Shown in pieces: positions 21,730-64,000 of a stretch of DNA of 64,000 bases. A program made the translations under genes and the position numbers. The DNA is from a virus. Below the pieces are notes generated by a model that was not told where the DNA came from, made no database searches, and was given only the letters and a program-made list of their open reading frames with translations. Each line of letters starts with the position of its first letter. The first letter of the stretch is position 1. Where the stretch lies: positions 28,262-92,261 of IMG/VR virus record IMGVR_UViG_3300030012_002528, one strand, 5' to 3'.

Positions 21730-21731
21730 AG

Positions 21732-22931: not shown

Positions 22932-22932
22932 T

Positions 22933-23185: not shown

Positions 23186-23207
23186 TGTAAACAAATTATT
23201 AAATACT

Positions 23208-23686: not shown

Positions 23687-23702
23687 AGTAAAATTAGAAA
23701 CT

Positions 23703-24209: not shown

Positions 24210-24211
24210 TT

Positions 24212-24499: not shown

Positions 24500-24501
24500 T
24501 T

Positions 24502-24807
24502 ATGAGTAAAAAACTTAAAACAGAGCAAGTAAAATTGCAATTAGAGGTGCAGTCTAATGGAATTAACATTGTGTGTTGTGCTAACTGCGACACAATTCTA
24601 CTGCACAGAATAAACGATAAGCATATCGTATGTCACGATTGTGGGGAGCATATGGCACTGAATGATTGTTGTGACCTATACTATGAGGATATGCCTAACT
24701 CGTTCCCAATAAGGGACAAGGTAAAAGGGGGGATGCCTATTCAACGTGATGCTATAAATGTATGGAGGAATAGTAATCCTAATGATGACTATATATTCTA
24801 TCACTAG
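24502..24807 (+). CDS. Zn-ribbon protein
   Basis: CANC...CHDC...DCCDLYY. Confidence 0.6.
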   Translation: MSKKLKTEQVKLQLEVQSNGINIVCCANCDTILLHRINDKHIVCHDCGEHMALNDCCDLYYEDMPNSFPIRDKVKGGMPIQRDAINVWRNSNPNDDYIFYH

Positions 24808-24885
24808 TATGAATGATTTGATAGTATTGGCTATTTGCCTTTTTGTAACGTGGATTAGTTTAAGATAAATTAAAAATTAGAAATT

Positions 24886-25548
24886 ATGCCGAATTGGTGT
24901 TTAAATAGATTAGAAGTGTGTGGGACTAAAGAACATATGTCTGAGTTCTACAGAATAATTGACTTGAGTGGTGGTAACTTTTGTATGGAAAGTTTTATGC
25001 CGACTCCAAGAAAACAGACAGACAAGGGTGGAGAAGAACTAAGAGATGATTGGTACGAATGGAGATGTTCTCATTGGGGTACTAAATGGGATGTAGATTC
25101 TATAAGTAGTTATGAGAATCAAAGAGATGATGATTACTATTCAATAGGTTATGATACGGCTTGGTCACCTAACGTAGAGTTTATTTTAACTATCTCTAAA
25201 GCATTCCCTAACCTATCGTTTACTTTGGAGTATGAGGAATGTGGTTGCCAAATCGCAGGAGAGGTTAAAATACAGAACGGAGAAGAGTTAGAACACACGC
25301 ACCACCCTTACTATAGCGTATGGTTCAAGTTATTGGAAGATAATAAGTTTGAGTTCGTAGAAATAACGATGGCTGATAATGGTAGTGGGGATATGTTGTA
25401 TGATAACAATTACGAATGTTGTACTGAATTGGCTGATAGGTTGCCCGAAGCAATAGAAAACGTTACCTATGTAGATGAATTGCAAGGGTGTGGAGAAATA
25501 ATTAACGAAAATGATTTGGATAAGTCACTGAATAGTCTTATTTTGTAA
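24886..25548 (+). CDS. YubB/Api92-like ferredoxin-fold protein (DUF1281-like)
   Basis: MPNWC.N.L, WYEWR..HWGTKWD, TAWSP. Confidence 0.75.
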   Translation: MPNWCLNRLEVCGTKEHMSEFYRIIDLSGGNFCMESFMPTPRKQTDKGGEELRDDWYEWRCSHWGTKWDVDSISSYENQRDDDYYSIGYDTAWSPNVEFILTISKAFPNLSFTLEYEECGCQIAGEVKIQNGEELEHTHHPYYSVWFKLLEDNKFEFVEITMADNGSGDMLYDNNYECCTELADRLPEAIENVTYVDELQGCGEIINENDLDKSLNSLIL

Positions 25549-48999: not shown

Positions 49000-51900
49000 T
49001 TATTTATCGTCAGATACAGCGTTAAGTAATAACTCAGACGTAGAAGGTATAACATTCTGTCTGAAGAACACATTAGAAGACCGTATAGCTCCTGCTGGGT
49101 CATCAGACAACAAAGGAGCGTAGATATTCTTCACAGGCGTAAGTTTAATCATCTTGGCCTGGTTCTTAGTTAATCCTTCATAAGGACCTTTAGTTACTTC
49201 ATCTCCTGCATCGTAAATAAAGCTAGGCAGCTCTGTGAAAGTCTTGATAGTATTCACACCAGCAGCAGGAGAGTCTAATATTTTGAGGAAGTCTCCTGCA
49301 CCTAAAGCAGTCGTAGAGATAGACTCGACAAAAGCTCTTGAGGAAATGTATGCCATATACTGACTACTCCAGCTTTCATCATTTTCATCATCATCCCCTG
49401 CTAAATTAGCTAACATATACAAGGCAAAGAGGCCTGTGATTGTATACATACCTCTTCCCATTCTTCGAAGGTTAGATTTCTCATTCTCGCTTAAATCAAG
49501 GTTGTTTTCTACAGCGTTTGCATTTGCTCCTGCTGTTAACATATAAGAACCCATTATAGCTAGGTCACGGAATCCTCCTCCCTGTTTGAATGCATCAGAA
49601 GAGAATAGTCTACCTGCTGTACGGTAATTACCTTCATCCTCTGTACCTGTAATATAATCAAAGTCTTTTTTCTTGAACCTTCCTTCTATACCTCTCTGGA
49701 GGAATCCTCGGTGCATATATAATAATGCTCCAATTGGATGTTTAGAAAATAAAGCTCTTTCTTCTTGCGAAGTCTGACCTTCAATCATATTATGTGCATT
49801 TTCGGCAGTTCTATTTATAAATGCTGCCGTTGTGTCAATATCTTGTTCTAACACACCATCTTTAATCATCTTAGCTCTATCTATTTCCATAGAGTTAGAT
49901 GTAGGCTTAAGGTAGTTGTAAAAAGAATTAGGTCGCATAGCAGTCCATGCTGTATCTATTTCTTGCTTAGTCATGTTAGGATTCCTTTTCTGCATCTCAA
50001 CATTGAACTGTTGTCTGTTGATGAACCTGGATTTTCCTGTGACTTCATCTTTGTACAGACGGTTGTTATCATATACTGCCATTATAGCTACAACTCCGTT
50101 AGTTTTACTAAACAGTTCATAAGCAAGATATCCTGGATTTGCCCTCATAACAGAACGATTAGCTCTGTTAGTGAATATACCTTTGGTCATTTGCTCTTGT
50201 CTCGCTATACCTGAAAAGTTAAGTAAATTATCACCGATACTTTTCTGTACGAGTTTACCTGATTCCAAAAACATCCTAGGAACTGTCTTAGATGCATTTA
50301 ATTGAGCCCAATTAAGACTTTCATCACTGAAATATTTTTTGGTAGCCGCAAGCACTCTCCTCTGTGTTGTAGAAGTTATCTGACCTACAACAGGTACATA
50401 TATATTAAATGCAAGGTTAGCGTTAGACACAAACTTGTATAATGCTCTTAATATTTTTGTAACTGATATTTTGGTACCAAAAACAGAAAACTCTCCCATA
50501 TCTGTACTCTTGTTTCCATACATAAATGAATCGAGCCAAGAGTCGAGTTTTGTTAAGGTATTAGTCAATGCTTTTCCGTCAGGGGTTTGCGAATTGGCTA
50601 CCGTATCTCTCATTAAGTTAATATCCGTGATGATTTTACCTTTCTCAGAATAGTTATAGGCCATTTGAGCATAACTCATGTACATATATCCTATATCTTT
50701 GGTAAGTTCTCCAGGGTCTTCCATTAACTTTGTAAAGTATCTTGGGATACTTTTTGTATTAACTCCAAATGCTTTGTTAGACCTTTCTCCAAAGTCTTCA
50801 TCGTAATTATCGACTACGAAGTTTCTTTTAAACCAAGCTTTAAGTTTTGGACCAGATACCGCACTCTCGTTAGCGTAACGTCTAACTTGAGGTAACTGGT
50901 AATATCCGTTAGAAATGTCTGCCTTCCTATCTAGCTCTCTTTTGAGTTCTAGGAAATATTCTCTAGCTTCAAACAGGTTTTTGTTGCGAGTAGGATTTTT
51001 AGAGTAAATATCACCTTTGTCTATTCCAAATAATTCAAAATATTCTTGGTCAAAATACTTATCCTGCATTTCTTGACTCAGCTTAGGCTGAGGAGCCCCT
51101 TTTTGTGCGAGTTCTTCGTTAAAATTAGGATTTAAAAACTGCTGGTCAACAGAAGTCATTTCCCACAAGAACTTAGGCTTTGGAGTCCTTTCTAATAGAT
51201 ATCCATTTTCAATAGGCGTAAAAGATGTATAGTATGACTTAGAAGGAACAGGTCTTCCAAATCGGTCTTTCTTGCCTCTTATAGTATTCTCATATAACCA
51301 GTTAGATAATGCTCTAGGGTCATTAAGTTGTTTAATTCTTTTAAGTTCCTTCTGGAATGAGGAGTTACCCATCCTTTCGAAATCAATTTTACCATCTGCC
51401 CAATTACCTTGGAAGCTTCTTAAGAATGAATCAATCATATCTAATTCAGCTCTTACGACCTGGTTTCTGTCTACTGCTGCTCCATCTATTTCTCCAGAGA
51501 TACTAGAAGAACGGTAAGGCTTCAATAAGTTTTGTTTTTTCTGTCTTAAAGCATCATAGATATCTTGCAGTGAACTGTTCTCATCAAGTTTAGTAACCTG
51601 TAGAGTACCGTTTACTTCTCTAGTAAGGAGCAAGTTCTGAGTAGCTCTTATTTTGAAGTCTAGTAGGCCTCCTGCTGCTTGTAAAGCTGCTTCAGTGTCG
51701 TCTACGTCTACCTCAAACTCTGAAGTGTCATAATCAATGTCATAGGACTGATATGCAAAAGTCGATAACCATAATTTATAATCAGCTTTACTTAAAGTTC
51801 TTTCTGCTTCTTGTCTTGCTTGTTCGAACCTTGCTTCAGCTTCAGGAGATATTTCAGCATCAGATGCGCTAAAATAGTCTCTAATGTCTAATGCTATAGC

Positions 51901-54318
51901 TAATTCTAAATCATCCTTTAGAGTTCCATCAGAGTTGTACATAGACTGCATCGCTTTGATGTCAGAATAAATTTGTTTTAACTCTGCATTATCAGCTACA
52001 GTGATGTTATTATAATTTACTTTTCCTGTAGTCTTGTCGTAGTACTTAGAAAGTATTTTGTTTTTAGAAGCAGAGTAGTCTCTAAGAATGTCTTGTGCTT
52101 GTTGTAGTCGTCTGCTACTCTTAGTTATGTAGTTGACTCCTGTTTTTCTATCTGCAAGTTTTGCATAAAACTCAGCAGTGAATCGAGTTTCAGTCCACTT
52201 TTGAGAGTGAGCAAGCATAGCAGCTCTCCACGAATCCCTAATTTTAGCATCTTTGACTAAGAACTGAGGGTCTGATTTATCTAGAGTAGCTAACTGCTTC
52301 TCATATTCCTCATTGATTTTATTAATTTCTTCTTGCTTATCTTTGAGATACTCTCGCATCTTCCAAGGGTTAAGCATAAAACCATCCTTCATTAGTTTTG
52401 CCGTGTCTTCTCTAGACAACCCTAGTCTTTGTTGAAGGTCTACCATATCTCCGTAAACACGGTCAGTATGTTGCTTAACTAGCTCTACTGATTTAAGGTA
52501 TAGAGCTGCTATAAGTTTAAGAGCAGGGTGTCCTGCACTTTCGTAAAAAGAGTAAACTTTAGCATTGAACCATGAAAGGTCCTCATATACATTTGTAGAT
52601 AATTTAATTAATTCATTATTAACATCCTCCTGTGATGCTTTTGCCCCTAAAGTAGTTTTAAGTTCTAATTTAGTCTTTGCTTTGGCAAGTCCTCTAAAGT
52701 CAGAAATATTTTCTTGGACACTACTTTTTAACTGATTAGAAAGCTCTTTTAGTCTTGCTATATCAGACTGACTAATTTGTCCCAAAGGATTATTATCAGC
52801 AGCATTTCCTATTTCTCCCTCTATTGTCTCTAAAAAGTTATCTATCATTTTTAGGAACTGAGGAATATTTTGATAAAACGTAATTAAGTTTTGAGCGTTA
52901 ACATTGCCCAAATGTCCTAACATATTTTCATACCCTACTTCCTTCCGCTGAGCCATCGTAGCTTTTGCATCTCTAATAGCTGTATTGGTTCGCTGCATAT
53001 CCTGTGAAAGAGACATAAGAGAGGCGTGTAACGCTCTCATATAATCAGCTTGACCAATAGACTCGATGATTTTTTGTATCTGTGCTCTTTTTTGATTAGT
53101 AAAGCTCCTTGCAGTGCCCTTACTTAAAGAGTTGTACACTTGTTGCATCTGTCTTAGGAAATTAGTAAGACTATCTTGTATCTGTTGGTCTTGTGCCGTT
53201 GCTGCGTAATATACTTCTCTAGACTGTACTGCACTAAAACCCTCAGTTCTTCCTTCTCTTACACCTAAAGAAATATCATCTAATACTTTACCAAAGTCTC
53301 TAAAGAACTCCTGATTTGCATCAGTTACTCTAAACATATCAAAGAACCTTTGGATAGCATCTCCTAAAGGTTGAAAAATACTCTCTCTAAATTGATTAGC
53401 AGTTCTTGTAATAGCGTTTCTCGGAGAGTCTTCTTTCAGGTTCTTTATCATTCTTTCAGCAAGAATCTTACCTAAGACCTCTTTTCGCACCATTCTTTCC
53501 AAAGCTTGTCCTGATGCTTGTTTTGAATACAACTGTCTGTACTTAGCAGCCTCTGCCTTGTAAACGTCAGTTTCAGGTATCCTCTCTAACATAGAATCAA
53601 TGATGCCTTGGTCATTAAAATATTCTACGGCAAAGTGGGCTACCTCCTCTGAAAGTTGGTCTACACTTCTGTCGTTTGAGACTGCAATCACTTGTTCCAT
53701 TATGTCCGCTAATGCTTCTACAGTGGGAGGTACTCCGTTTTTCTTGGAGTACTGCTCAATGTATTGGTCCATGCTGACTACAGAAATACCCATAGATGTG
53801 GCAAAGTCCCTTAGTTTCTGTAAAACTTGACTATTTGTATCTAATGTTGCAGGTCTTTTGGCTCTCTGTGTTTCTTCTATGATTACTTCATCAAGCATTT
53901 TAATTTTCATAGAAGTTTTGAGACCTCTGACTTTATTGAAAGTCGTACTTAAGTCGTCTCCTGCTTTAAACCTTTCGTAGTAATTATCTACATTAAGTTC
54001 TACAACCTCATTAGTAGTCGAGTCTCTAAAGGACTTTACAGGGGAGTTCTGTTGGTCCATTAAGACCTCGTCTAAAACAACATACCTGTCTCCTGTCTTG
54101 CTATCTTCTATAACAGATGCAAAATCAGTTGACTCGAACATGTCAGAAATTTTCTGAAGTACAGCAATTTCATTTATGTTATTTGTTAATTTGTAAACAT
54201 ACTGATTAGGTTCAGGAATAGCTTTTAATTTACCTGAATTAATATCAGAAAGCACCGCAGCTTTAAGTAAATTTTTATTTGGATATGTTATCCCTTTGTA
54301 TTTAAATGAACACGCCAT
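49000..54318 (-). CDS. giant virion cargo/ejection-type protein (1772 aa)
   Basis: helical composition, zincin-like EEVAH, C-terminal hydrophobic segments; position in the late operon. Confidence 0.65.
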   Translation of the reverse strand: MACSFKYKGITYPNKNLLKAAVLSDINSGKLKAIPEPNQYVYKLTNNINEIAVLQKISDMFESTDFASVIEDSKTGDRYVVLDEVLMDQQNSPVKSFRDSTTNEVVELNVDNYYERFKAGDDLSTTFNKVRGLKTSMKIKMLDEVIIEETQRAKRPATLDTNSQVLQKLRDFATSMGISVVSMDQYIEQYSKKNGVPPTVEALADIMEQVIAVSNDRSVDQLSEEVAHFAVEYFNDQGIIDSMLERIPETDVYKAEAAKYRQLYSKQASGQALERMVRKEVLGKILAERMIKNLKEDSPRNAITRTANQFRESIFQPLGDAIQRFFDMFRVTDANQEFFRDFGKVLDDISLGVREGRTEGFSAVQSREVYYAATAQDQQIQDSLTNFLRQMQQVYNSLSKGTARSFTNQKRAQIQKIIESIGQADYMRALHASLMSLSQDMQRTNTAIRDAKATMAQRKEVGYENMLGHLGNVNAQNLITFYQNIPQFLKMIDNFLETIEGEIGNAADNNPLGQISQSDIARLKELSNQLKSSVQENISDFRGLAKAKTKLELKTTLGAKASQEDVNNELIKLSTNVYEDLSWFNAKVYSFYESAGHPALKLIAALYLKSVELVKQHTDRVYGDMVDLQQRLGLSREDTAKLMKDGFMLNPWKMREYLKDKQEEINKINEEYEKQLATLDKSDPQFLVKDAKIRDSWRAAMLAHSQKWTETRFTAEFYAKLADRKTGVNYITKSSRRLQQAQDILRDYSASKNKILSKYYDKTTGKVNYNNITVADNAELKQIYSDIKAMQSMYNSDGTLKDDLELAIALDIRDYFSASDAEISPEAEARFEQARQEAERTLSKADYKLWLSTFAYQSYDIDYDTSEFEVDVDDTEAALQAAGGLLDFKIRATQNLLLTREVNGTLQVTKLDENSSLQDIYDALRQKKQNLLKPYRSSSISGEIDGAAVDRNQVVRAELDMIDSFLRSFQGNWADGKIDFERMGNSSFQKELKRIKQLNDPRALSNWLYENTIRGKKDRFGRPVPSKSYYTSFTPIENGYLLERTPKPKFLWEMTSVDQQFLNPNFNEELAQKGAPQPKLSQEMQDKYFDQEYFELFGIDKGDIYSKNPTRNKNLFEAREYFLELKRELDRKADISNGYYQLPQVRRYANESAVSGPKLKAWFKRNFVVDNYDEDFGERSNKAFGVNTKSIPRYFTKLMEDPGELTKDIGYMYMSYAQMAYNYSEKGKIITDINLMRDTVANSQTPDGKALTNTLTKLDSWLDSFMYGNKSTDMGEFSVFGTKISVTKILRALYKFVSNANLAFNIYVPVVGQITSTTQRRVLAATKKYFSDESLNWAQLNASKTVPRMFLESGKLVQKSIGDNLLNFSGIARQEQMTKGIFTNRANRSVMRANPGYLAYELFSKTNGVVAIMAVYDNNRLYKDEVTGKSRFINRQQFNVEMQKRNPNMTKQEIDTAWTAMRPNSFYNYLKPTSNSMEIDRAKMIKDGVLEQDIDTTAAFINRTAENAHNMIEGQTSQEERALFSKHPIGALLYMHRGFLQRGIEGRFKKKDFDYITGTEDEGNYRTAGRLFSSDAFKQGGGFRDLAIMGSYMLTAGANANAVENNLDLSENEKSNLRRMGRGMYTITGLFALYMLANLAGDDDENDESWSSQYMAYISSRAFVESISTTALGAGDFLKILDSPAAGVNTIKTFTELPSFIYDAGDEVTKGPYEGLTKNQAKMIKLTPVKNIYAPLLSDDPAGAIRSSNVFFRQNVIPSTSELLLNAVSDDK

Positions 54319-54329
54319 TAGTTTGGTTT

Positions 54330-56516
54330 TTATAATTTACAGTTACCTTCAATTTTATTTTGCTGAATTAGTCTACTTATTTGATAGTCTAAATTGTTTA
54401 CATTTTGAGTATCTCTTCTTTCGACTATAGGAGATAGAGATATATTCTGGTCTTTTACTATGAATACATCTTTTTTCTTTCCTCCTTCTTTTGTTGTAAG
54501 TTTAACGATTTGAGCATCGGAGTCCTGTACAGCATTCTTCTCTAAAACTTTTAAATTATCTTTAGTGATTACTTTAATACTTCTTTGAGTGCCTCCTACG
54601 ATAACTTCGTCTTGTAATATTTGCTGACCCTCATTGATTGTGCCTGTTTCCTCTGCCGTCTCAATGTCTATGGAAGGTAGTTCGGAAACTTTAGTAATTA
54701 CTACACTTGTTTTACCCAGCTTGTCAGCTTGTTTAGGTTTCTCTACCACTGCTGCATCCCCTAGTATTTCTTGAATATACTCTAAAAGTTCATTACCATC
54801 GAAGCCTTTTTGAAAAGAGAATATAGGCTCTCCTGTAACTTTGTCTTTTCTAGAAGCTTTGGCTAATAGGCTTTTCTTCTCAGTTTTTTCAAAGTCCTGA
54901 TATGATTTTGAAGATGCGATATCTCCCTTCCACCCTCTAGCAGATACGTATGCCTTACCTCCTACTTGTAATTTATTTAAAATATCTCTAACAATGAAGT
55001 CTCTAACGTTTTTAGGGACCACATTAAGAACATTTAAAGATACAATAGAATCGTATCTTTTGTTGATGTCTTGAGACTTAGTGTAGGTAGGAGGTGTTTT
55101 CCCTTCCCACAGTTCTGTATTAGGCTCAAATGACTCTACGTCCTTACCAAACTCATCTCTCATAGCATCTGTTCCTAAACCTAGGCCTGCTCCATAATCA
55201 AGTACGGTACCGTCTCCTAACATTTTTGCAGCTTTTCTATATGTAGCTAAAGTGTTGGCTCTTTGTGTAGTAAAAGAATTTTTAGCTAATTCTTCATCGG
55301 ATAGTTCGACTAAACTTACTTCGCCTGCTCCTGTTTCTGGTTTTACTAGTCTAAACCTTCCTGCCCCTATTTGTTCTGCCTCCCCCATAGCTACTAAGTT
55401 TTCCCATAACCTCATAGCTTCAATGGTCTGTGCAGTATCAGAAACAATTTCTCCATCAAGACTTTCAGCAGCCACACGATACATCTCTGTTCCTATTCCG
55501 TTTCTACGATATTCGGGACTAACAGATATAGTGTCTACTTGGAAACCATTTTCAGTTTCCACTAGTCTTAGACTACCTATTCTGTTCTGGTCAATTGATG
55601 CTACTATTGCTACTCTTCCAGGACTTTCCTGTATGTCGAAATTAACAGTTGCATCTTCTTCTTGATTGATTTCCGTTTCTTGAATATTGATATATTCTAC
55701 GGTAGTTCCTTCTGGTATGTCGTACTTGCCCAACAAATCCCCTTCTGGCACTTGGTCGGCAGCTTCTTTTTTTATGGTAGTAGAAGTTCTAGAATCAGGT
55801 AGAGAAGACTCGCTAGTTTGGTATAACCTCGCTGCGGATTGAAGTTCTATTTTTCCATCCTCTAACTTATCTAACTGTTTGTTTCCATTATCATAGATAG
55901 CAGCACTGATGTCTGTTATCAGTTTGTCCATAAGCTCACTCAAAGGAGTTTTCTTGCCCTCTATGAGACCTTCATTTACAAAATCATTAAGGAGACCATT
56001 AAGATTTTTAACATTATTGTTAGGAGCAAAATTAGCTAGTTCTACAACATCAAATGATTTACGATTTACAATGTAATAGATACCATCTCTAGCTTGTGCC
56101 ACTAATTGATTAACCCCTTTTGTAAATGAGTTAGCAATATCTTTAACTATATTACCAGTTGATTCTATTTTAATGCCTTTGTTATTCTTTTTTACTAGAG
56201 ACATTTCTACTCCCTTATTTTGGAAGTCTTCTTTGATAGCTTGGTCAATAGATGTTGTATGTACAATAGCATCCGATAATAATAAATTATTATTAGGAGT
56301 TCTAGATGCAAAAACTACTATAGGTTCCCCATTCTCATCCGATAGATAAGAAGCAGTTTCATTCTTATCTATAGAAGCTTGGTAGTACACAAGAGCTTGT
56401 TCTGCAGACAAGTAAGGTACTTGACTGATAGACTTATACAAATTAGACTCCTTACCGTTATCGGCAAGAACGCTAGTTACTACACCATTAGTTCTTGTTA
56501 TCTTACAACTTGCCAT
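54330..56516 (-). CDS. polyvalent protein: GNAT acetyltransferase + class I SAM methyltransferase
   Basis: VSPEYRRNGIGTEMY...SD....AMRLW; VLDYGAGLG...FEP...YDSIVSLNVLNVV...LQVGG. Confidence 0.8.
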   Translation of the reverse strand: MASCKITRTNGVVTSVLADNGKESNLYKSISQVPYLSAEQALVYYQASIDKNETASYLSDENGEPIVVFASRTPNNNLLLSDAIVHTTSIDQAIKEDFQNKGVEMSLVKKNNKGIKIESTGNIVKDIANSFTKGVNQLVAQARDGIYYIVNRKSFDVVELANFAPNNNVKNLNGLLNDFVNEGLIEGKKTPLSELMDKLITDISAAIYDNGNKQLDKLEDGKIELQSAARLYQTSESSLPDSRTSTTIKKEAADQVPEGDLLGKYDIPEGTTVEYINIQETEINQEEDATVNFDIQESPGRVAIVASIDQNRIGSLRLVETENGFQVDTISVSPEYRRNGIGTEMYRVAAESLDGEIVSDTAQTIEAMRLWENLVAMGEAEQIGAGRFRLVKPETGAGEVSLVELSDEELAKNSFTTQRANTLATYRKAAKMLGDGTVLDYGAGLGLGTDAMRDEFGKDVESFEPNTELWEGKTPPTYTKSQDINKRYDSIVSLNVLNVVPKNVRDFIVRDILNKLQVGGKAYVSARGWKGDIASSKSYQDFEKTEKKSLLAKASRKDKVTGEPIFSFQKGFDGNELLEYIQEILGDAAVVEKPKQADKLGKTSVVITKVSELPSIDIETAEETGTINEGQQILQDEVIVGGTQRSIKVITKDNLKVLEKNAVQDSDAQIVKLTTKEGGKKKDVFIVKDQNISLSPIVERRDTQNVNNLDYQISRLIQQNKIEGNCKL

Positions 56517-59500
56517 TACTTACAAAGGTTTTTTTCTATTTGCTCAAGAGCTTTGTTTTCATTAATGAAAGAGGATATCGGCTCACTGCTTTCAGCGTAA
56601 ATATAATCCATTTCTTTGGTAACTTCAAAGGTTTTTGACTTTTTATATTGAGTATTTATCCTCGCCAACATTCCTCCTATTTCTCCATTATTAGAAAGCT
56701 TGTACGCTTGTACGTACTCAGCAGAAATTTCTAGGTCAAATGATTCGAGAAGGTTATTAATTTGATTAGTAGTCTCTAATGTTTCATCGGTAAGTTCTCC
56801 GATGTTAGCAACATCAAATTCTACCATACCCCCTCCATCTTCATTTTCTTTTTTAACTAGGAAGAAAGTTGCTCCTTCTGAAAGGTCATCCATAGCTGTA
56901 GCAGACATTTCTGCATCATCAAATTCCATCAAGAAGTTATCTTCATTTTGATTTACAATATTGGAATTGTCTCCTTTTCTAGTTCTTACTAAAGACCCAA
57001 AGTCTACAGTGATACCTAGCTCTCCAAACTCAGTTCTTAATTGTATCAGACTATCTAGAAAATTGTAGGTGGAGTCTTTTCTTGCTGCTATGAAGGTACC
57101 GAAAGCAGCCATAGCTTTTTTAAAGTCAGCCTCTCTCATCCCCTCCATTTTTCGAATACCCTCTACCCTCAAGCCCATCTCGTTGAAAGCTCTTTCTACA
57201 GTATCTGTGGCTATACCCACTTCAAATGTTCTACGTCTTTCAGACATAGTCTCAAAATTAATCTTAGCAGCTCTCTCCACTAAACTGTCGTAATTAGTTA
57301 AGTTACCTTGAATGATTCTTCTAAGGTCTTTCATTTGCTTGTAGCCAAATACTCTATCTGCTTGAGTAATGTATGCCCAAACTATTGTAGTATTGGCATA
57401 ACCTAAAGTATCAAATAAAGCTTCTTTCTCTTGCTGAGTGATACCTTCTGTCATATCTATAAGAGCAGACAGGTTACCAGGAGGGTTACCGTTAAGTACT
57501 GCTCTTAAATATGTTTCAGACATCATAGTGAACATACCTTCTACATCCCCTATATTTTCAGACAAGAAGTCTTTTACTTTTCCTATACCGAAGCTATTTT
57601 GGCTATCAGCCATCAGAGTTCTACTAGATTTCATCTGACCTTTTACAGTCTTATAGAAGTGCATATTATTTAATTTAATAATATACTCTCTAGTGGTGAG
57701 AGGTATGTCATTTGCATCTTTTTCGACTATATCTCCCATTATGCCTCTAGTTACTTTTTCATTAGGGTCGTATTTTTGTTCTACTCCTAAAGTGACTAAG
57801 TTAGGACCTTTTTTAATGACTACTTTTTGGTCATTTTTTTCTACTACTTCTATCTTAGTACCATCCGCTAAAGTGTAAGTTTCTCCTTTTACACCATTAT
57901 TGATTATCCATTCTTCAGTCTGGGATACAGTTTGGCCTACTTGGCTCTCATCAAATGCCATCTGCGATGGAGAAGCCGTTGCGGAAGCTGTTGCGGAGTC
58001 GGTTGTTATATCTCCCATCTTTAGAGCCCCTATTCCTTTCTGTAACCTTACATTTAATACATCTGTAAGGTCATCAAGTAAAGTTTTGTTTTTTACACCA
58101 AAAGTACCTACAACCTTTCGAATCAATTCTTTAAATGTATCCCAAAGAGTTTTCTCTTGCTGTGCTTCTAAAGGGCCTGTAGCCTGAGTATCTAGCCACT
58201 CCGCAAAATTAGGGTCTGTAAAAGCATAAGTGATTACTTCCTCGATAGAATACAATTTGTTCATTAATTGTTTTGAGCCTATTTTCGAGGTCTTAATAGC
58301 AGATTTTGCTCTAAGTGCCTTAATGAGTTGGTTTGGCACTCTCCATATAGTACCATCTGCTCTTCTAATTTGATTCTTAGGTAAGTTATCTCTTTTAGAA
58401 CTTGCATCTAGAGCATTTACAACTTTGTCTATCCACACTTGGATGTCTTCCCAAAATTCTACCCCAGCTTGATATTCTCCTAAGCCTGTTAATGAACGTC
58501 TGGAAGCTAACAACTCGGCTCTTTTCGATTTAGCCCGAGCAGAAGAAGATTCTACGGTTAAAAACGCATCTCCTGTAGCTTGCATCATAAGAGCATGTAT
58601 GACTTCATGTTGGATTATCATTTCAAGGTCATATGCTGTCCCATATTGTTCGGTCCTAGGTCTATTTAAATTTAAATCAAGATAACCTCCACGTCTATAC
58701 AAACTTTCTATCCCAGCTAAATTTATTCCGATGTATCCATCAAATCTAGCTTTGTTTCCCATCCAAGTAAGAGTAGAATCAGCTGGACCATTCGCTCTCC
58801 AAGAAGGCTGGTAATATCCTCCTTCTGTACTATTAGGTGCATTGTAGAAATGAACAGGAACTTTTGCTTTTTCTAAAGCTCTTAAATATGATACCGTGCC
58901 TGGTTGCAATACGTCCCCAAGCTTATCTATAAGTTCTCTTGGAGATAGAGATTTTTTAGGGGGACCATATTTTCCCCTTGAACTGTAAAAGCTTTTTTTA
59001 TACACAAATACACTATCCTTAATAATATCTAGTAGTGTCTGAGTTGTAAGTGGCTCGGGAGCTGTAAATTTGCTAACACTTTTTAAAGGTATACTAATAG
59101 GAGACCCGTCTGAATTCATTCCTACTACATCATTCCCTTTTATCTGTGCTTTTCTAATAGTAGTAAAGCCCAAAGCGGTGTTAGCTGTTACCCTACCATA
59201 TTCGTCCTTAACTTTATCAAGTTGTTTTACTAAATTAGACTTGTTTTTAGGAGCAGGTTTAGTACTTGCAGTAACTGAGTCGTTTGTTGTTAAAGTGTTG
59301 ATATCTACACTTATTCTTTGAGACACAAACGCTTCCATCCCAGGTTTTACTTGCAGAGAAAGGTCTTGTTTAAGTTGTTTAAATGAGTCGTTATTTTGCA
59401 AATCAGCCAGAACATAAACCTTTCCTGTAGTGTCCGCTGCCTGTAAAGTAACAGAGGCTCCTGTACCATCTGTAATTTGAACATAAATCGCTCCTGGAGC

Positions 59501-62500
59501 TAATGGTGCATCAGTTGGATTAGATATCTGGTTACCTTGTCTATCAAATAAAGTGGTACTTGATGCTGCTACAAAATATTTTAAAGTAGTTTTCTTATCT
59601 TTACTCTTCTCGTACTCCTCTAATGTAGTCCATTGTAGCTGTCCATTTTGGATGTTATTGTTAAATAAAGTAAATTTCTGTCTTACTTTTACTGCTCCTG
59701 CATCATAGGTTAGGCCTTGACTCATAGCGTTTACAAAAGCAGTTTTAAGGTTACCATCTGAACCTTTTAATAATTTATTTCTAAACTCTGCTATAGCTGC
59801 CTGAGAAGCCTGAGTTTGCATATCAAAATCAGTTCCTCTAAACACACCTACTAAGGTACCGTTAGAAATTAATTCTACATTAATATTATCTAAAAGAGTC
59901 TGTGTTGCCTCCTCTGTTCTTCCTGCATCTTCCCAATTTTTTATAAGTTCTTGGTTATGCTCGTTAGAAGGTACTACTCTTAATTTAACAACATCTCCTG
60001 GCTGTATTTTAGCTAGTGCTTTTCTTTCCGCCTTTTTATTGTATGTAGGGAAATTACTTGAAATAAGAGTAGAAGTCTGTCCATCTTCAGATAATTGTGT
60101 AAGAGGAGAAAATCCTCCTATTGCTTCTTGTACTGATATTCCAAAAGTATTTTGTAAGATGTCTTTAGCATTCTGTGTATTACCTGCTGTTATTAAGTAA
60201 GTCCTGCCAAACTTGGACTCTTTTACAATAGCATAACCTTTGGCATATAATTGAAAACTAATTTTCTCATCAAGAGCAGTATCATTTAATTGGTCTCCTC
60301 TGAATATTGTTTCTGGATTACCATTTAAGTCTTTTTCTAATAAGCTATTGTTAAGGTGGATAGATACTATCGTGACATTATTTTTATACTTCTTATAAAC
60401 CTCATCCAATGCTTTTTTTAAGTTTGGATTTTGTTTTTTAATAATGTTGTTAAAGTATGTATCTCTTGCCTCTTGGAACCTAGCTATTGCTTTGTCGAAG
60501 AAGTGAGTGAGCATATTAGCTCTAGTGCTACCTCTAAATTTAAAAGTTTTTACCCTCCTCTCTATCTGTTCTTGTGTAAGGGGTCTTCTTTTTGATGCCT
60601 TTGGAGTTTTATTAATACCTCCTTGACCTCCTGGCCCTGCTTTGGGTTTTTCCCCTTCTGGACTTTCAGGTCCTTCTGGACTTTCAGGTCCTTCTGGACT
60701 TTCAGGTCCTTCTGGCCTTTGAGGTCCTTCTGGTCCTTCTGGTCCTTCAGGAGCATCTGGGGCATCAGGTTTTCCTGGCCTTTTAGGTCCTTTTGGAGGT
60801 TGAGGACCTTGAGGACCTTCTCCGTCAGTGTCGCCCTCTTGCCCTGGTTGAAAAAGACGTCTATCTTCTTCATCCTGTTGTGGGGTTTCTTCTTTGGTCT
60901 CTTCTGTTCCTCTTTCCTTTCGGTCTTGGTCTCTTCTCTCTCTTGCTTTGGTTTGGAAAGCTTTTGCGTACTTGCTAAAATACTCTTCGTTAGTCAGCTT
61001 GTTATATAAGTCAAGCATCATAGTACCGTCAGCTTCAATTGCAAGATAGTCTGCTAAAGTTTTTTCAAACTCCGTGTCTGCAAACCTTCCTGCAAAACCT
61101 GCGAACCTTTCAGTTATCTTTGCAGCTACCTCGTCTGCTGTTACATCTTGTTTAAAGTTACCATCTTCTGCTAAGAGGTCTTCTTGTAAACCCTTGATAA
61201 CGGCTAAATACTCTCTGTCTCTTGCTATTTCCTTATCAAAGAGTGCTCTCTCAGCTGGGTTAAGTTCTACTCCCTCATTAGCTTTAATTCTATCTGCAAT
61301 AGAAGCTTCTACTCTGTTGCCTAAGTCTGCTAAATTTCCAGGGTTATTTAAGACATCAATGACTTCTTGTAGTTGAGCACCTCTTTCAGTTTGAGCTGCA
61401 CTCTCCTTCAATGACTCTCTCATCTTTTGAGCTCTATTATAGGCGTTTTCGCCATTCATATAGATTTCAGCCATTTTTTCTTGAGCCACTCTGTAAGCTG
61501 CTCTGTCTATATTCTCAGTGAGACCATCAAAAGTTTTTTGAGTATTTTTTTCGATGTTGGTAAGTATCTTATCGTACTTTTGTCCTTCTGATTTTAAGTT
61601 AGCTGAAATTTCAGCCATTGTTTCTCCCCCTGTTAACTCTTGTAACATAGCAGGGTCTTGTGTAACTGCCTCATTAGCTTGGTACTCAAAGGCATCTACC
61701 ATCTCATTAAGGAGGCCTGTTTTTCTAGCCATTGCAAAGAAAGAGAACTTAGCATCTTGTCGGTGGTCTTTAGCGTTAAGCTCTTGATTATTCTCTCCTG
61801 CATCAACCATACCCATAGCAGAATTTAACTGCTGGGCTGCATTTCTTGTTTTAGGACTATTTACAATAGTTTCATTGAAATAATTTTGTACTGTATTGTT
61901 AAGAGAATCAATAACTGCTTTTTGCTGTTGTTGTTCTCTAGCTGTTTGTCCTGTAATTCTATTTTTACCACTAGTAATGGTAGCCATTCCCATACCAGAA
62001 AACATACCTGATACTAGTTCATCATAACCTTCTCCACTATCAAAAGAATCAACAAGCTCTTGGCCTATCGCTCCTGACAATGATTTGATGTATTTACCGC
62101 TACCACTATTATCTAAGTCATAGTAATTTTGGGCAGCTCTTGAGCCCACACCTTGAGCGACCTCTTCAAGACCTTCCTGAATATTAAGTCTTTCTAAATA
62201 CTTTGTGTAGTTTATTAGCCTGTCTTTGGGAGTAGCTAGTCCTTCTTTTACTAATTGCTTATGAGTATAGAATTTACCCTGTCTTTGTATGGCTTCTTTT
62301 GCGAACTTACCTTGCCCACTTTTGAAAACACTTGTAAGGCTGCCTCCTCTAAATAAATTATTCAGAGTCATTACGTTGGAAGCCATAAGGACTGGGACGT
62401 TAATACCAAAGGTAGCATTTCCTACTTTATTAGAATTTGTAGCAATTTTTTCACGAACGTCATCGGGAGTAAAAGTTATTCCACCATATTTTTCGTACTG

Positions 62501-63655
62501 TGAAAGTTCAAACTCTGCTGAAGCCATATTAGCTTCTAATGCTGCCTCTGCGTTTGCAGCGTGCAATTGACGAGCGTAAGTAGGAAGCTTTTTAAGAGCA
62601 TTGTGTGCTCTTTGTGAAAAAGTTAAATCAGCAGCTTGAGATAAATCCTCTATGCCTTCTAATGTTTTTGCAATGTCTTTCCCTTTGTCTGCTTTTGTAA
62701 CGCCTCTTGCTAAATCATCGGCTGCACCCCCTATTGTGTTTCTAGCGACTGTATAAATTCCTTTTTCTAAAGACTTAACATCTCTACCCATGTCTAGTGC
62801 CGAAGCAACAGCTCTGGTAGTAGTGAGAGCTTTACTTGCATCAGAAGCCTTATCAACAGCTCTAGTAGTACCATATATACCTTTAAGTATATTAACTAAT
62901 TTAGGTGCTTTGGCCGCTAAGTTTGCAAATCCTCCTGCTCCTCCTAACTCTGCAGTTATTGCTCCTAGAGCAGCTGACTCTGCTACATATGCCCCAATAG
63001 TACCGTATGTGTAACCAAAGTTTTGCATTAGCTGCGCCCAATAGGCTGAAGAATTGGGGGACACAAGCGGTACGTATTTTCCTACTGCCCCGAAGAAGCC
63101 TTTATTTTCAGCTTCATACTCTCTCATTTCTTTAGTCTGGTAAATAGGTTGATATATATCAACCGAAGCCGAAGTTTTTGCCGCATTTGCTGCAGAAGCA
63201 TCCCTCCACGCTGCCCCGAAAGCATCCCCACCTGTAGCAAGTTCTACAACAGCTTTAGCATCTCTTCCATACTGTGAAAAGTAGTTAGTAAAAGCGTTAC
63301 CTGCTAAGGTGTACATACCTGTAAGACCGTTGCCTAGCTTTTCCCAAGTAGACTGGTTTTGGCCATATAGGTCTTCATTATCAAAATTAGGTAAAAACCC
63401 ATTCTTATATCGAGAAACATATCCTGTACCTCTAGGGTCTTTTTCATATAGCCTTCTTCCAGAAAGGTCTTTAGCTCCTATGTATACTCCTTTTGCTTGA
63501 CCTAGTAACCCCTCATCAGGAGATACTACTTGATTTGCAAAGTTAGTTGCAGACTCATATAAACTATTTGCCCCTGGAACAAATTGTTTTTTGCCTCCTT
63601 GTTGCGTAATGCCCCCATCTTGTGGAGTTACTATCTTAACATTGGGATTAGACAT
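56516..63655 (-). CDS. giant virion cargo/ejection-type protein (2379 aa) with zincin metallopeptidase domain
   Basis: HEVIH at 58595-58609 with downstream EE..TYAFTDPNF; A/G-rich hydrophobic N-region; PEG repeat linker. Confidence 0.7.
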   Translation of the reverse strand: MSNPNVKIVTPQDGGITQQGGKKQFVPGANSLYESATNFANQVVSPDEGLLGQAKGVYIGAKDLSGRRLYEKDPRGTGYVSRYKNGFLPNFDNEDLYGQNQSTWEKLGNGLTGMYTLAGNAFTNYFSQYGRDAKAVVELATGGDAFGAAWRDASAANAAKTSASVDIYQPIYQTKEMREYEAENKGFFGAVGKYVPLVSPNSSAYWAQLMQNFGYTYGTIGAYVAESAALGAITAELGGAGGFANLAAKAPKLVNILKGIYGTTRAVDKASDASKALTTTRAVASALDMGRDVKSLEKGIYTVARNTIGGAADDLARGVTKADKGKDIAKTLEGIEDLSQAADLTFSQRAHNALKKLPTYARQLHAANAEAALEANMASAEFELSQYEKYGGITFTPDDVREKIATNSNKVGNATFGINVPVLMASNVMTLNNLFRGGSLTSVFKSGQGKFAKEAIQRQGKFYTHKQLVKEGLATPKDRLINYTKYLERLNIQEGLEEVAQGVGSRAAQNYYDLDNSGSGKYIKSLSGAIGQELVDSFDSGEGYDELVSGMFSGMGMATITSGKNRITGQTAREQQQQKAVIDSLNNTVQNYFNETIVNSPKTRNAAQQLNSAMGMVDAGENNQELNAKDHRQDAKFSFFAMARKTGLLNEMVDAFEYQANEAVTQDPAMLQELTGGETMAEISANLKSEGQKYDKILTNIEKNTQKTFDGLTENIDRAAYRVAQEKMAEIYMNGENAYNRAQKMRESLKESAAQTERGAQLQEVIDVLNNPGNLADLGNRVEASIADRIKANEGVELNPAERALFDKEIARDREYLAVIKGLQEDLLAEDGNFKQDVTADEVAAKITERFAGFAGRFADTEFEKTLADYLAIEADGTMMLDLYNKLTNEEYFSKYAKAFQTKARERRDQDRKERGTEETKEETPQQDEEDRRLFQPGQEGDTDGEGPQGPQPPKGPKRPGKPDAPDAPEGPEGPEGPQRPEGPESPEGPESPEGPESPEGEKPKAGPGGQGGINKTPKASKRRPLTQEQIERRVKTFKFRGSTRANMLTHFFDKAIARFQEARDTYFNNIIKKQNPNLKKALDEVYKKYKNNVTIVSIHLNNSLLEKDLNGNPETIFRGDQLNDTALDEKISFQLYAKGYAIVKESKFGRTYLITAGNTQNAKDILQNTFGISVQEAIGGFSPLTQLSEDGQTSTLISSNFPTYNKKAERKALAKIQPGDVVKLRVVPSNEHNQELIKNWEDAGRTEEATQTLLDNINVELISNGTLVGVFRGTDFDMQTQASQAAIAEFRNKLLKGSDGNLKTAFVNAMSQGLTYDAGAVKVRQKFTLFNNNIQNGQLQWTTLEEYEKSKDKKTTLKYFVAASSTTLFDRQGNQISNPTDAPLAPGAIYVQITDGTGASVTLQAADTTGKVYVLADLQNNDSFKQLKQDLSLQVKPGMEAFVSQRISVDINTLTTNDSVTASTKPAPKNKSNLVKQLDKVKDEYGRVTANTALGFTTIRKAQIKGNDVVGMNSDGSPISIPLKSVSKFTAPEPLTTQTLLDIIKDSVFVYKKSFYSSRGKYGPPKKSLSPRELIDKLGDVLQPGTVSYLRALEKAKVPVHFYNAPNSTEGGYYQPSWRANGPADSTLTWMGNKARFDGYIGINLAGIESLYRRGGYLDLNLNRPRTEQYGTAYDLEMIIQHEVIHALMMQATGDAFLTVESSSARAKSKRAELLASRRSLTGLGEYQAGVEFWEDIQVWIDKVVNALDASSKRDNLPKNQIRRADGTIWRVPNQLIKALRAKSAIKTSKIGSKQLMNKLYSIEEVITYAFTDPNFAEWLDTQATGPLEAQQEKTLWDTFKELIRKVVGTFGVKNKTLLDDLTDVLNVRLQKGIGALKMGDITTDSATASATASPSQMAFDESQVGQTVSQTEEWIINNGVKGETYTLADGTKIEVVEKNDQKVVIKKGPNLVTLGVEQKYDPNEKVTRGIMGDIVEKDANDIPLTTREYIIKLNNMHFYKTVKGQMKSSRTLMADSQNSFGIGKVKDFLSENIGDVEGMFTMMSETYLRAVLNGNPPGNLSALIDMTEGITQQEKEALFDTLGYANTTIVWAYITQADRVFGYKQMKDLRRIIQGNLTNYDSLVERAAKINFETMSERRRTFEVGIATDTVERAFNEMGLRVEGIRKMEGMREADFKKAMAAFGTFIAARKDSTYNFLDSLIQLRTEFGELGITVDFGSLVRTRKGDNSNIVNQNEDNFLMEFDDAEMSATAMDDLSEGATFFLVKKENEDGGGMVEFDVANIGELTDETLETTNQINNLLESFDLEISAEYVQAYKLSNNGEIGGMLARINTQYKKSKTFEVTKEMDYIYAESSEPISSFINENKALEQIEKNLCK
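60654..60822 (-). repeat. coding Pro-X-X tandem repeat (PEGPES)n
   Basis: 18-nt CCTTCTGGACTTTCAGGT x3 plus 9-nt variants. Confidence 0.85.
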
Positions 63656-63667: not shown

Positions 63668-64000
63668 TTATTGGTTTGTTTCAAATTCTTCGACTATTGC
63701 CTCGCCAAAATCATTAAAGAAGTTCGAACTAAATTGTACTGCGTAATCGTTATCGTAATTTCTCATAATTTCGTCATTATTATAACTATTTACAGTGTAA
63801 GATGCAACAGGCTGTCCTCCAACGGTATTTACAGTTGATAAGAGAGCGTTGGTGTTGGCATCATAAATTGATATTGATTTTGCAGTCATTTTTTGATATC
63901 CTGGCATACCCCCCTGTCTTTCTCTTACCGAAGCATCTGCTATGTACTGATTAGAAATGTCCATAGTAAGTTTATAGTCTCCTACTTGAGCGTAGGCAGG
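63668..64000 (-). CDS. C-terminal part of an upstream virion protein (partial)
   Basis: frame appears open to the window end. Confidence 0.6.
   Translation of the reverse strand, partial: PAYAQVGDYKLTMDISNQYIADASVRERQGGMPGYQKMTAKSISIYDANTNALLSTVNTVGGQPVASYTVNSYNNDEIMRNYDNDYAVQFSSNFFNDFGEAIVEEFETNQ

What the first reader, a model, noticed from the sequence alone, without database searches (positions are those of the whole stretch)
54310..56524. Cysteine daisy chain: three giant cargo proteins whose only Cys residues lie at their adjoining termini
Seen: scanning the three translations (2379+728+1772 = 4879 aa) I find only four cysteines. They are C2378 of the 2379-aa protein (...EKNLCK*, 56522-24), C4 and C726 of the 728-aa protein (MASCK..., 56505-07; ...EGNCKL*, 54339-41) and C3 of the 1772-aa protein (MACSF..., 54310-12). 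The two outer ends have none. Every C-terminal Cys faces an N-terminal Cys of the next gene product. Inference: the proteins are linked head-to-tail by disulfides (or a shared metal) into one ~540-kDa chain for ordered packaging and threading during ejection, and released on reduction in the cytoplasm. This would let an enzyme module (the GNAT-MTase protein) be slotted into the chain simply by acquiring two terminal Cys. I do not know of this being described.
Basis: partly seen in the sequence, partly recalled or inferred. Interest (0 to 1): 0.85.

Follow-up and report, generated by a model that had tools for sequence, protein, structure and literature searches.

The report
Terminal cysteines chain crAss cargo proteins
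Three huge proteins of this crAss-like phage have no cysteine except one at each end that faces the next protein; relatives keep this rule wherever the genes are separate and lose it where they are fused, so the proteins are probably tied end to end by disulfide bonds, which nobody has tested.

Summary
The three minus-strand proteins (2379, 728 and 1772 aa; 544 kDa) hold four Cys: C2378, C4/C726 and C3. About 79 would be expected at the 1.62 % Cys of the window's other ORFs.

The pattern is a conserved rule, not chance:
- All 27 junctions between separate cargo genes in 17 lineages carry a Cys on both sides. These include crAss001 gp47/gp50/gp49 and phi14:2 g067/g066/g065. Outer ends never carry one.
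- It holds where gp47 lies on the opposite strand.
- It holds in crAss002 (downstream start re-called by me) and in two non-Crassvirales phages (phi17:2, Lbo-JY46).
- Both Cys vanish in two independent kinds of gene fusion.
- Of 150 representative proteins with the same N-terminal module, 147 have Cys within residues 2-7.

A head-to-tail disulfide with the same syntax (gp27 Cys1715 to gp26 Cys5) was seen by cryo-EM in cyanopodophage A4 (PMC12002296). The tether reading is therefore well supported but unproven here.

Particular to this window:
- The middle link is a GNAT plus methyltransferase enzyme held between conserved N- and C-terminal adaptor segments.
- It sits where relatives carry the virion RNA polymerase. 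No such polymerase is detectable in the 92-kb genome.

This scan has already reported the same rule on at least eight other crAss-like genomes. I found no paper describing it for crAss-like phages.

The parts
56516..63655 (-). Gene A, 2379 aa (262 kDa), first link of the chain. It is the counterpart of crAss001 gp47 / phi14:2 g067. Its only Cys is C2378.
   Evidence: (blastp to gp47, E 7e-8)
56522..56524 (-). Codon of A Cys2378 (...EKNLCK*), the donor end of junction 1.
58595..58609 (-). HEVIH (HExxH, zincin-type metallopeptidase motif) in A at residues 1683-1687. The 2210-aa homologue in L006 keeps it.
60626..60868 (-). Pro/Gly/Glu-rich low-complexity linker in A (residues ~930-1010, PEGPE repeats). 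It is the source of the weak tail-fibre and collagen-like hits.
54330..56516 (-). Gene B, 728 aa (80 kDa), the middle link. Its only Cys are C4 and C726. Its start overlaps the stop of A (TAATG).
55917..56516 (-). B N-terminal adaptor module (residues 1-~200), including Cys4 (codon 56505-56507). Cys4 precedes a predicted beta-hairpin and helix. C4, I6, V16 and S24 are invariant among 12 relatives.
55449..55673 (-). B GNAT acetyltransferase domain (residues 282-356).
   Evidence: PF00583 29 bits against a cut-off of 20.7; PF13508 27.7 against 27
54948..55220 (-). B SAM-dependent methyltransferase domain (residues 433-523), with a VLDYGAGLGLG motif.
   Evidence: PF13489 24.3 bits, below the cut-off of 27; homologues carry PF13489/PF08241
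54333..54581 (-). B C-terminal adaptor (residues 646-728), ending ...KIEGNCKL. Cys726 (codon 54339-54341) is the donor end of junction 2. The segment is 45 % identical to the C-terminus of the 644-aa middle protein of L006.
49000..54318 (-). Gene C, 1772 aa (202 kDa), last link. It is the counterpart of crAss001 gp49 / phi14:2 g065. Its only Cys is C3 (codon 54310-54312).
   Evidence: phrog_37651, 1e-31; gp49, E 4e-22
53449..53814 (-). Most conserved block of C (residues 169-290), with invariant D205, E224, E225, H228, Y260, Y264, E280, G283 and K284 (EEVAHF motif). It is probably the zincin-like domain reported for phi14:2 gp65 orthologues.
   Evidence: (preprint statement)

Best explanation
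A, B and C are Cys-purged virion cargo (ejection) proteins of a crAss-like podophage. The C-terminal Cys of each protein pairs with the N-terminal Cys of the next (A2378-B4 and B726-C3). Short adaptor segments next to each Cys probably position the pair, which is then locked as a disulfide in the virion. Each bond sits within 1-5 residues of a chain end, so the product is a topologically linear 544-kDa thread. Such a thread can be unfolded and passed through the tail channel protein after protein. This mimics the single giant polyproteins that some relatives encode. The reducing host cytoplasm would then release the parts, among them the GNAT-methyltransferase enzyme B. Shown here: the Cys pattern, its conservation, its complementarity and its loss on fusion. 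Shown elsewhere: one such disulfide in phage A4, and virion location of the crAss001 and phi14:2 counterparts. Inferred: the bond in this phage, when it forms, the order of ejection, and reductive release.
For: (1) The pattern is exact in the window.
(2) 26 of 27 homologues of C, down to 22 % identity, have a Cys at residues 2-5. In 25 of them it is the only Cys in ~1700-2700 aa.
(3) In cultured phages whose proteins are known virion components the rule holds. phi14:2: g067 Cys only at 1797 (last residue), g066 vRNAP Cys only at 3 and 2179, g065 Cys only at 3. crAss001: gp47 C2339, gp50 C5/C2404 (+1 internal), gp49 C5. crAss001 virion location is from PMC10172136.
(4) The rule is independent of gene arrangement: gp47 of crAss001 and gp078 of DAC15 lie on the opposite strand and still carry only the C-terminal Cys.
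(5) Chains of 2, 3 and 4 links in IMG/VR loci all obey it. Every inner end has a Cys and no outer end has one: 27 junctions in 17 lineages.
(6) Fusion removes the pair. In L008 a B-like N-adaptor plus GNAT is fused in frame to a C-like body, and both Cys are gone at the joint. Suoliviridae gp47+gp50 polyproteins of 4500-4950 aa have no Cys pair at an internal joint but keep the C-terminal Cys that faces the next protein.
(7) Among 150 representatives (50 %-identity clusters) that carry B's N-terminal module, 147 have Cys within residues 2-7. Of the 86 that are >=500 aa, 70 have no internal Cys, 45 also end in Cys (median 762 aa, middle links) and 41 do not (median 1919 aa, end links).
(8) The same rule holds in Intestiviridae crAss002, if gp33 starts at its internal Met33 (my re-call of the start, which gives MSC; the annotated start puts the Cys at residue 35). 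It also holds outside Crassvirales in Cellulophaga phage phi17:2 and Leptolyngbya phage Lbo-JY46.
(9) Structural precedent: in cyanopodophage A4 a disulfide between gp27 Cys1715 and gp26 Cys5 is seen in the pre-ejectosome (PMC12002296). In the A-4L record these are the only Cys of the 1717-aa and 1114-aa proteins.
(10) Disulfides do exist in crAss001 virions, in the tail (PMC10172136).
Against: There is no direct observation of a bond in any crAss-like phage. The crAss001 cryo-EM maps did not resolve gp47/gp49/gp50. Virions assemble in a reducing cytoplasm, and gut crassviruses live in an anaerobic habitat, so an oxidant or an oxidation step after release has to be assumed. Sequence alone cannot tell which Cys pairs with which. 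A4 gp27/gp26 show no sequence similarity to A, B or C, so the precedent is an analogy and not homology. One representative of the N-module has Phe in place of the Cys (P0172).
Confidence: 0.65

Rival explanations
1. The termini are tethered pairwise as proposed, but by something other than a disulfide. Candidates are a bridging metal ion held by the two thiolates plus neighbouring side chains, or another thiol-based cross-link.
For: The pairing evidence is the same as for the best explanation. A metal bridge would not need an oxidant in an anaerobic host. Lys often neighbours the Cys (CK, KC, KxC motifs).
Against: Only two thiols are available per junction, and His is depleted five-fold in these proteins. 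The A4 structure shows a plain disulfide for the same syntax.
Confidence: 0.08
2. Each terminal Cys bonds to something other than the neighbouring cargo protein. This could be a homodimer partner (A-A, C-C, B polymers or rings) or a Cys-rich structural protein of the portal, tail or muzzle that anchors the cargo in the particle.
For: crAss001 tail and portal-vertex proteins do form inter-subunit disulfides. A Cys-rich (30 Cys) large structural ORF lies directly upstream of A. Sequence cannot assign partners.
Against: This does not explain why the first protein never has an N-terminal Cys and the last never a C-terminal Cys (17 of 17 lineages). It does not explain why C-terminal and N-terminal Cys are always equal in number, or why both Cys of a junction disappear together when the two genes fuse.
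Confidence: 0.1
3. The terminal Cys stay as free thiols in the virion and act in the host. They could be a redox or periplasm sensor, a site modified or oxidised by host Dsb-type enzymes during passage, or a docking residue of the adaptors. No chain would be packaged.
For: Cys suppression in ejected proteins has been ascribed to avoiding periplasmic disulfide catalysts (PMC11445570). The few Cys that are retained could therefore be there to exploit those catalysts. The cytoplasm where assembly occurs is reducing.
Against: Loss of the pair on fusion points to a linking role that a peptide bond can replace. In A4 the bond is present in the mature particle.
Confidence: 0.1
4. The pattern is an accident, or a by-product of nucleotide constraints at overlapping gene junctions (translational coupling signals that happen to encode Cys).
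For: The A/B junction overlaps (TAATG) and TGTAAG occurs on both sides of it.
Against: The pattern holds when the genes are on opposite strands or separated by other genes (crAss001, DAC15 and the epsilon group). It also holds across <25 % identity, with a chance probability of ~3e-11 in the window alone.
Confidence: 0.01

Closest known systems
Cyanopodophage A4 (Anabaena phage A-4L) pre-ejectosome: gp27 Cys1715 to gp26 Cys5 disulfide (PNAS 2025, PMC12002296)
   Same: Two consecutive, otherwise Cys-free giant ejection proteins are involved. The upstream one has its single Cys 3 residues from the C-terminus and the downstream one has its single Cys at residue 5. The bond was seen by cryo-EM inside the capsid. 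The authors suggest a chain reaction on ejection.
   Different: A4 has a single link, whereas here there are two (and up to three in the relatives I checked). There is no detectable sequence similarity to A, B or C. A4 is a 42-kb phage of the family Saffermanviridae and not a crAss-like phage. The paper does not describe a conserved rule, adaptors or enzyme links.
RNA-polymerase cargo block of cultured crassviruses: crAss001 gp47-gp50-gp49 and Cellulophaga phage phi14:2 g067-g066-g065
   Same: A is homologous to gp47 and C to gp49/g065. The terminal-Cys syntax is the same. The counterparts are proven virion proteins, thought to be ejected partly unfolded (PMC10172136).
   Different: In those phages the middle link is the ~2200-2400-aa vRNAP with a DFDxD motif. 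Here it is a 728-aa GNAT-methyltransferase, and no such RNAP is detectable in the genome. Neither paper mentions the terminal Cys.
Fused cargo polyproteins of Suoliviridae (cr118_1, cr50_1, cr1_1, cr125_1; 4500-4950 aa)
   Same: The cargo block is the same. The C-terminal Cys of the polyprotein faces the N-terminal Cys of the last protein.
   Different: The first junction is a peptide bond, and no Cys pair marks it. This is the natural control for the tether idea.
N4 / Schitoviridae ejection operon (vRNAP gp50 / DEV gp71, gp72, gp73)
   Same: These are giant virion proteins ejected into the host with strong suppression of Cys, ascribed to passage through the periplasm (PMC11445570).
   Different: The Schitoviridae proteins have essentially no Cys at all, and the vRNAP is one ~3400-3500-aa chain. 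No terminal Cys pairs are reported.

Membership tests
Head-to-tail disulfide-tethered ejection proteins (type case: phage A4 gp27-gp26) | The upstream protein has a Cys within ~5 residues of its C-terminus and is otherwise Cys-free. | tested here: met
   A C2378 of 2379; B C726 of 728
Head-to-tail disulfide-tethered ejection proteins (type case: phage A4 gp27-gp26) | The downstream protein has a Cys within ~5 residues of its N-terminus and is otherwise Cys-free. | tested here: met
   B C4; C C3. Conserved in 147 of 150 representatives.
Head-to-tail disulfide-tethered ejection proteins (type case: phage A4 gp27-gp26) | The disulfide is physically present in the virion. | not testable with these tools
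   This needs non-reducing PAGE, MS or cryo-EM.
Head-to-tail disulfide-tethered ejection proteins (type case: phage A4 gp27-gp26) | Sequence homology to A4 gp27/gp26. | tested here: not met
   blastp gave no hit better than E 0.03. The relation is an analogy of mechanism, not family membership.
Crassvirales gp47/gp50/gp49 cargo block | A gp47-like first protein. | tested here: met
   A against crAss001 gp47: E 7e-8 over ~500 aa. The similarity is weak.
Crassvirales gp47/gp50/gp49 cargo block | A gp49/g065-like last protein. | tested here: met
   C against gp49: E 4e-22. tblastn hits to 63 crAss-like records. phrog_37651 at 1e-31.
Crassvirales gp47/gp50/gp49 cargo block | The middle protein is the virion RNA polymerase with a DFDxD motif. 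| tested here: not met
   B is GNAT plus MTase. No DFDxD in A or B. tblastn and a 4-sequence HMM find no gp50/g066 relative in the 92-kb genome. A very divergent RNAP cannot be excluded.
Crassvirales gp47/gp50/gp49 cargo block | The proteins are packed in the virion and ejected. | not testable with these tools
   Inferred from the counterparts in crAss001 and phi14:2.
Cys-suppressed ejected phage proteins (N4 gp50 type) | Cys frequency far below that of the phage proteome. | tested here: met
   0.08 % against 1.62 %. Internal Cys are 0 of 4879 residues.
GNAT acetyltransferase (B, residues 282-356) | A Pfam GNAT model scores above its gathering score. | tested here: met
   PF00583 29.0 against 20.7; PF13508 27.7 against 27. 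Activity and substrate are unknown.
Class I SAM-dependent methyltransferase (B, residues 433-523) | A Pfam MTase model scores above its gathering score, and the GxGxG SAM motif is present. | tested here: inconclusive
   PF13489 scores 24.3, below the cut-off of 27. The motif VLDYGAGLGLG is present. Homologues P0032 and P0036 carry PF13489, P0032 also PF08241, and P0034 is named SAM-dependent methyltransferase by its source.

The most novel reading that the evidence does not exclude
crAss-like phages and some related podophages may use a general, modular 'clasp code'. A short N-terminal hairpin module beginning with Cys and a C-terminal tail ending in Cys would let any protein be spliced as a link into one covalent, linear thread that is injected and opened by reduction. 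Candidate links include the RNA polymerase, proteases and host-modifying enzymes such as this GNAT-methyltransferase. Matching adaptor types would set the order of the links. In this phage the polymerase link would have been swapped for a host-modifying enzyme, so the phage would rely on the host polymerase.
Probability: 0.35. Interest if true: 0.85.

Novelty: new variant of a known kind. Interest (0 to 1): 0.65.

Why it matters
crAss-like phages are the most abundant viruses of the human gut. How they pack and deliver more than 0.5 MDa of protein, including their RNA polymerase, is an open question: the published virion structure could not resolve these proteins. A covalent, reducible, end-to-end chain would explain several things. 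It would account for ordered exit through a narrow tail. It would explain why some lineages can encode the same cargo as one 4500-4950-aa polyprotein and others as 2-4 genes. It would also explain how new enzymes are recruited as injected cargo. The idea can be tested directly with phages already in culture (crAss001, DAC15, phi14:2). If confirmed, it offers a simple design rule for loading foreign proteins into phage particles.

Tried and rejected
- Complex prediction of the last 200 aa of A with the first 210 aa of B, using my own alignments A3 and A2: no verdict (median score 0.20, mark 0.32). It counts neither for nor against.
- AlphaFold2 of whole B with a 12-row alignment: mean pLDDT 48.6. 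That is too poor for a fold search. Only the N-terminal hairpin-helix (pLDDT ~60-76), the GNAT core and the MTase core are modelled with any confidence.
- Megablast of the block against phage records: no match.
- Single-protein scans of IMG/VR with B and with C: nothing. An alignment query was needed.
- PDB sequence searches with A, B and C: nothing useful.
- NCBIfam: only low-complexity hits.
- Search for a vRNAP in the genome by tblastn and a small HMM: negative.
- Joining the contig ends as a circle does not give one open frame for the ORF upstream of A.
- One Cys4 metal or Fe-S cluster shared by all three proteins: rejected, because relatives have 2-Cys and 6-Cys systems.
- Intein-like or ligation chemistry: rejected. 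The Cys is not residue 1 and no intein domain is present.
- Lipoprotein-type acylation: rejected, because there is no signal peptide or lipobox.
- Nucleotide-level artefact of overlapping genes: rejected.
Full report
WHAT IS THERE. The window is the last 64 kb of a 92,261-bp single-contig genome. tblastn of protein C finds crAss001, DAC15, many uncultured crAss phages and Cellulophaga phages, which places the genome among crAss-like phages. Three consecutive minus-strand genes encode A (56516..63655, 2379 aa), B (54330..56516, 728 aa) and C (49000..54318, 1772 aa). The window's other ORFs have 1.62 % Cys, so about 79 Cys would be expected in 4879 residues. His is also depleted five-fold, 0.43 % against 2.32 %. 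The chance that four Cys fall one each into the four adjoining 5-residue ends is ~3e-11.

IDENTITY OF THE PROTEINS.
- A resembles crAss001 gp47 (E 7e-8) and C resembles gp49 (E 4e-22). C also matches phrog_37651, a virion structural protein.
- C has a conserved block with invariant D205, E224, E225 and H228. This fits the zincin-like domain reported for the phi14:2 gp65 family.
- A has an HEVIH motif that its closest homologue keeps, and a PEGPE-type low-complexity linker.
- B has a GNAT domain above Pfam's cut-off and a class-I methyltransferase-like domain just below it, with a GxGxG motif.
- In crAss001 the counterparts gp47, gp49 and gp50 are virion proteins placed in the capsid cargo zone and thought to leave partly unfolded (PMC10172136). 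In phi14:2, g065-g067 are virion proteins by proteomics.

THE RULE IN RELATIVES.
- Homologues of C from a 5.8-billion-protein collection: 26 of 27 full-length proteins, down to 22 % identity, have a Cys at residues 2-5. For 25 of them it is the only Cys in 1700-2700 residues.
- phi14:2: g067 has Cys only at its last residue, the crystallised vRNAP g066 only at 3 and 2179, and g065 only at 3.
- crAss001: gp47 C2339; gp50 C5, C2404 and one internal; gp49 C5. DAC15 and cr126_1 behave alike.
- In crAss001 and DAC15 the gp47-type gene lies on the opposite strand from the other two. The pattern therefore belongs to the proteins and not to the gene junctions.
- IMG/VR loci found with an alignment query show chains of two links (L008, L014, L016, L080), three links (L006, L012, L017, the epsilon group) and four links (L013). 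Every inner end has a Cys and no outer end has one.
- My tally is 27 junctions in 17 lineages without exception. For comparison, 2 of 120 ordinary ORFs have a Cys at residues 2-6 and 5 of 120 in the last four.
- The rule also holds in Intestiviridae crAss002, provided gp33 starts at its internal Met33, which gives MSC. That start is my re-call; from the annotated start the Cys is residue 35.
- It holds outside the order too: Cellulophaga phage phi17:2 (1957 aa with C as last residue | 517 aa with C4 and C516 | 1914 aa with C3) and Leptolyngbya phage Lbo-JY46 (1552 aa with C as last residue | 2748 aa with C4).

NATURAL CONTROLS: FUSIONS. In the L008 lineage a B-like N-terminal module plus GNAT is fused in frame to a C-like body. 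Residue 5 of C aligns with residue 350 of the 2182-aa L008 protein (E 2e-170). At the joint, where the window has '...NCKL*' and 'MACSFKYKG', the fused protein reads 'NSSDPHYVYKG', with no Cys. In Suoliviridae (cr118_1, cr50_1, cr1_1, cr125_1) the first two proteins are one polyprotein of 4500-4950 aa. It has a few scattered internal Cys and no pair at a joint. It still ends in Cys, facing the N-terminal Cys of the last protein. So a peptide bond can stand in for the Cys pair, as expected if the pair's job is to join the two chains.

ADAPTORS.
- The first ~200 residues of B are homologous to the N-termini of middle and last links in many lineages. C4, I6, V16 and S24 are invariant in alignment A2.
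- A profile of this module finds 895 proteins (E <= 0.001) among 1.84 billion representatives. Of the best 150, 147 have Cys within residues 2-7. Two of the three exceptions look like mis-called starts and one has Phe.
- Among the 86 of at least 500 aa, 70 have no internal Cys. 45 also end in Cys (median 762 aa) and 41 do not (median 1919 aa). The profile contains the invariant Cys, which biases this count slightly.
- The last ~80 residues of B (...KIEGNCKL) match the C-termini of the middle proteins of L006, P0030 and L012. All three closely resemble the window lineage, and in L006 and L012 the C-type protein that follows begins MAC-x-[FY]-x-Y-x-G. I could not check what follows P0030.
- P0030 carries the methyltransferase and GNAT domains in the opposite order, with similar N- and C-terminal ends.
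- B is therefore a swappable enzyme core held between two chain adaptors. It did not become a link merely by gaining two Cys.
- The AlphaFold2 model of B is poor overall (pLDDT 48.6). It places Cys4 just before a beta-hairpin and helix and Cys726 in a floppy tail.

MECHANISM. The best reading is a head-to-tail tether, most simply a disulfide.
- Support from elsewhere: the cryo-EM structure of cyanopodophage A4 shows a disulfide between gp27 Cys1715 and gp26 Cys5 in the packaged pre-ejectosome (PMC12002296). In the A-4L record these are the single Cys of the 1717-aa and 1114-aa proteins. Disulfides are also seen in the crAss001 tail.
- Cys suppression in ejected proteins is known for N4-like phages and is ascribed to passage through the periplasm (PMC11445570).
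- My inference: placing the only Cys within 1-5 residues of the ends gives a linear, unbranched thread that survives unfolding and fits a narrow channel. Cytoplasmic reduction would then free the links.
- Not shown: the bond itself in any crAss-like phage, when it forms given a reducing assembly compartment and anaerobic hosts, which Cys pairs with which, and the order of exit.
- Rival readings are given separately with what would refute each: a metal bridge, bonds to other virion proteins or homodimers, free thiols used in the host, and chance.

WHAT IS PARTICULAR TO THIS WINDOW. The middle slot, which holds the DFDxD vRNAP in Steigviridae, is occupied by the 80-kDa GNAT-methyltransferase. 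No gp50/g066-like polymerase is found anywhere in the genome by tblastn or a small profile. The closest relatives (L006/L007) also have a short 644-aa middle link. Bacteroidota-type promoter-like sites (TTTG-N18-21-TAnnTTTG) are moderately enriched, 9 against 2.3 expected. This would fit reliance on the host polymerase, but it is only a hint, and a very divergent RNAP in A cannot be excluded.

NOVELTY. I found no paper that mentions terminal Cys or a covalent chain for crAss-like cargo proteins. A single link of this kind is published for A4. This scan has already reported the same rule on at least eight other crAss-like genomes, and one of those notes led me to the A4 paper, which I then checked myself. 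I class the finding as a new variant of a known kind: a multi-link, adaptor-guided chain, conserved across the order, that includes enzymes.

TOOLS THAT GAVE NOTHING.

Noticed in passing
whole genome G000 (window 1-64000 and the 28 kb before it): No relative of the crAss virion RNA polymerase (phi14:2 g066 / crAss001 gp50, DFDxD motif) is detectable by tblastn or by a 4-sequence HMM. The slot between the gp47-like and gp49-like genes holds the GNAT-methyltransferase instead. The phage may lack a vRNAP, or may have one too divergent to see.
   Followed up: partly
window 49000-63655 (-): Histidine is also depleted about five-fold in the three cargo proteins (0.43 % against 2.32 % in the other ORFs). 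Homologues show a milder depletion (0.5-1.7 %). I have no explanation.
   Followed up: partly
window 9998-13932 and scattered: Bacteroidota-type promoter-like sites (TTTG-N18-21-TAnnTTTG) number 9 against 2.3 expected (1 of 100 shuffles reach 9). Several lie in the early-looking region. This is compatible with transcription by the host polymerase.
   Followed up: partly
window 63668-64000 (-) and G000:C1:1-3740 (-): A Cys-rich large structural ORF (30 Cys in 1246 aa, muzzle or tail-like by position) runs off the contig start, and a 5'-open ORF runs off the contig end directly upstream of A. Joined as a circle, the two do not form one open frame, so the contig ends are not a clean circular junction.
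   Followed up: partly
G000:C1:6787-7851 (-) and 8023-8781 (-), outside the window: Two Cys-rich ORFs (354 and 252 aa) begin MACSNCN and MACKNCN. They are possibly tail-fibre-type proteins whose N-terminal Cys dock by disulfide, as described for the crAss001 tail hubs.
   Followed up: no
L092 (crAss002, MN917146) 3270-3370: The annotated start of gp33 is probably 32 codons too far upstream. The internal Met gives MSCTPSNPK, the usual N-terminal Cys syntax, facing gp32 which ends ...SFVCS.
   Followed up: partly
L094 (Cellulophaga phage phi17:2, gp039-gp036) and L093 (Leptolyngbya phage Lbo-JY46): The terminal-Cys rule holds in phages classified outside Crassvirales that share a gp49-like C-terminal region. 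The trait is therefore wider than the order.
   Followed up: partly
P0030 (823 aa, closest relative of B): The methyltransferase and GNAT domains are in the opposite order to B, with similar N- and C-terminal ends. This points to domain shuffling within a chain link.
   Followed up: partly
L003 (cr125_1, NC_055900) 4084-22496: The annotated giant genes contain 78 and 38 in-frame stops under table 11, which indicates stop-codon reassignment. The terminal Cys (…KECE* and MQC…) are still present.
   Followed up: no
L002 (csAssE-Sib, OR575929) 18710-25112: The last-link gene is annotated from an internal start (MAWQ...). In sister IMG/VR genomes the ORF starts ~260 codons upstream with M[VT]STC. 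The record probably has a frameshift or a mis-called start.
   Followed up: partly
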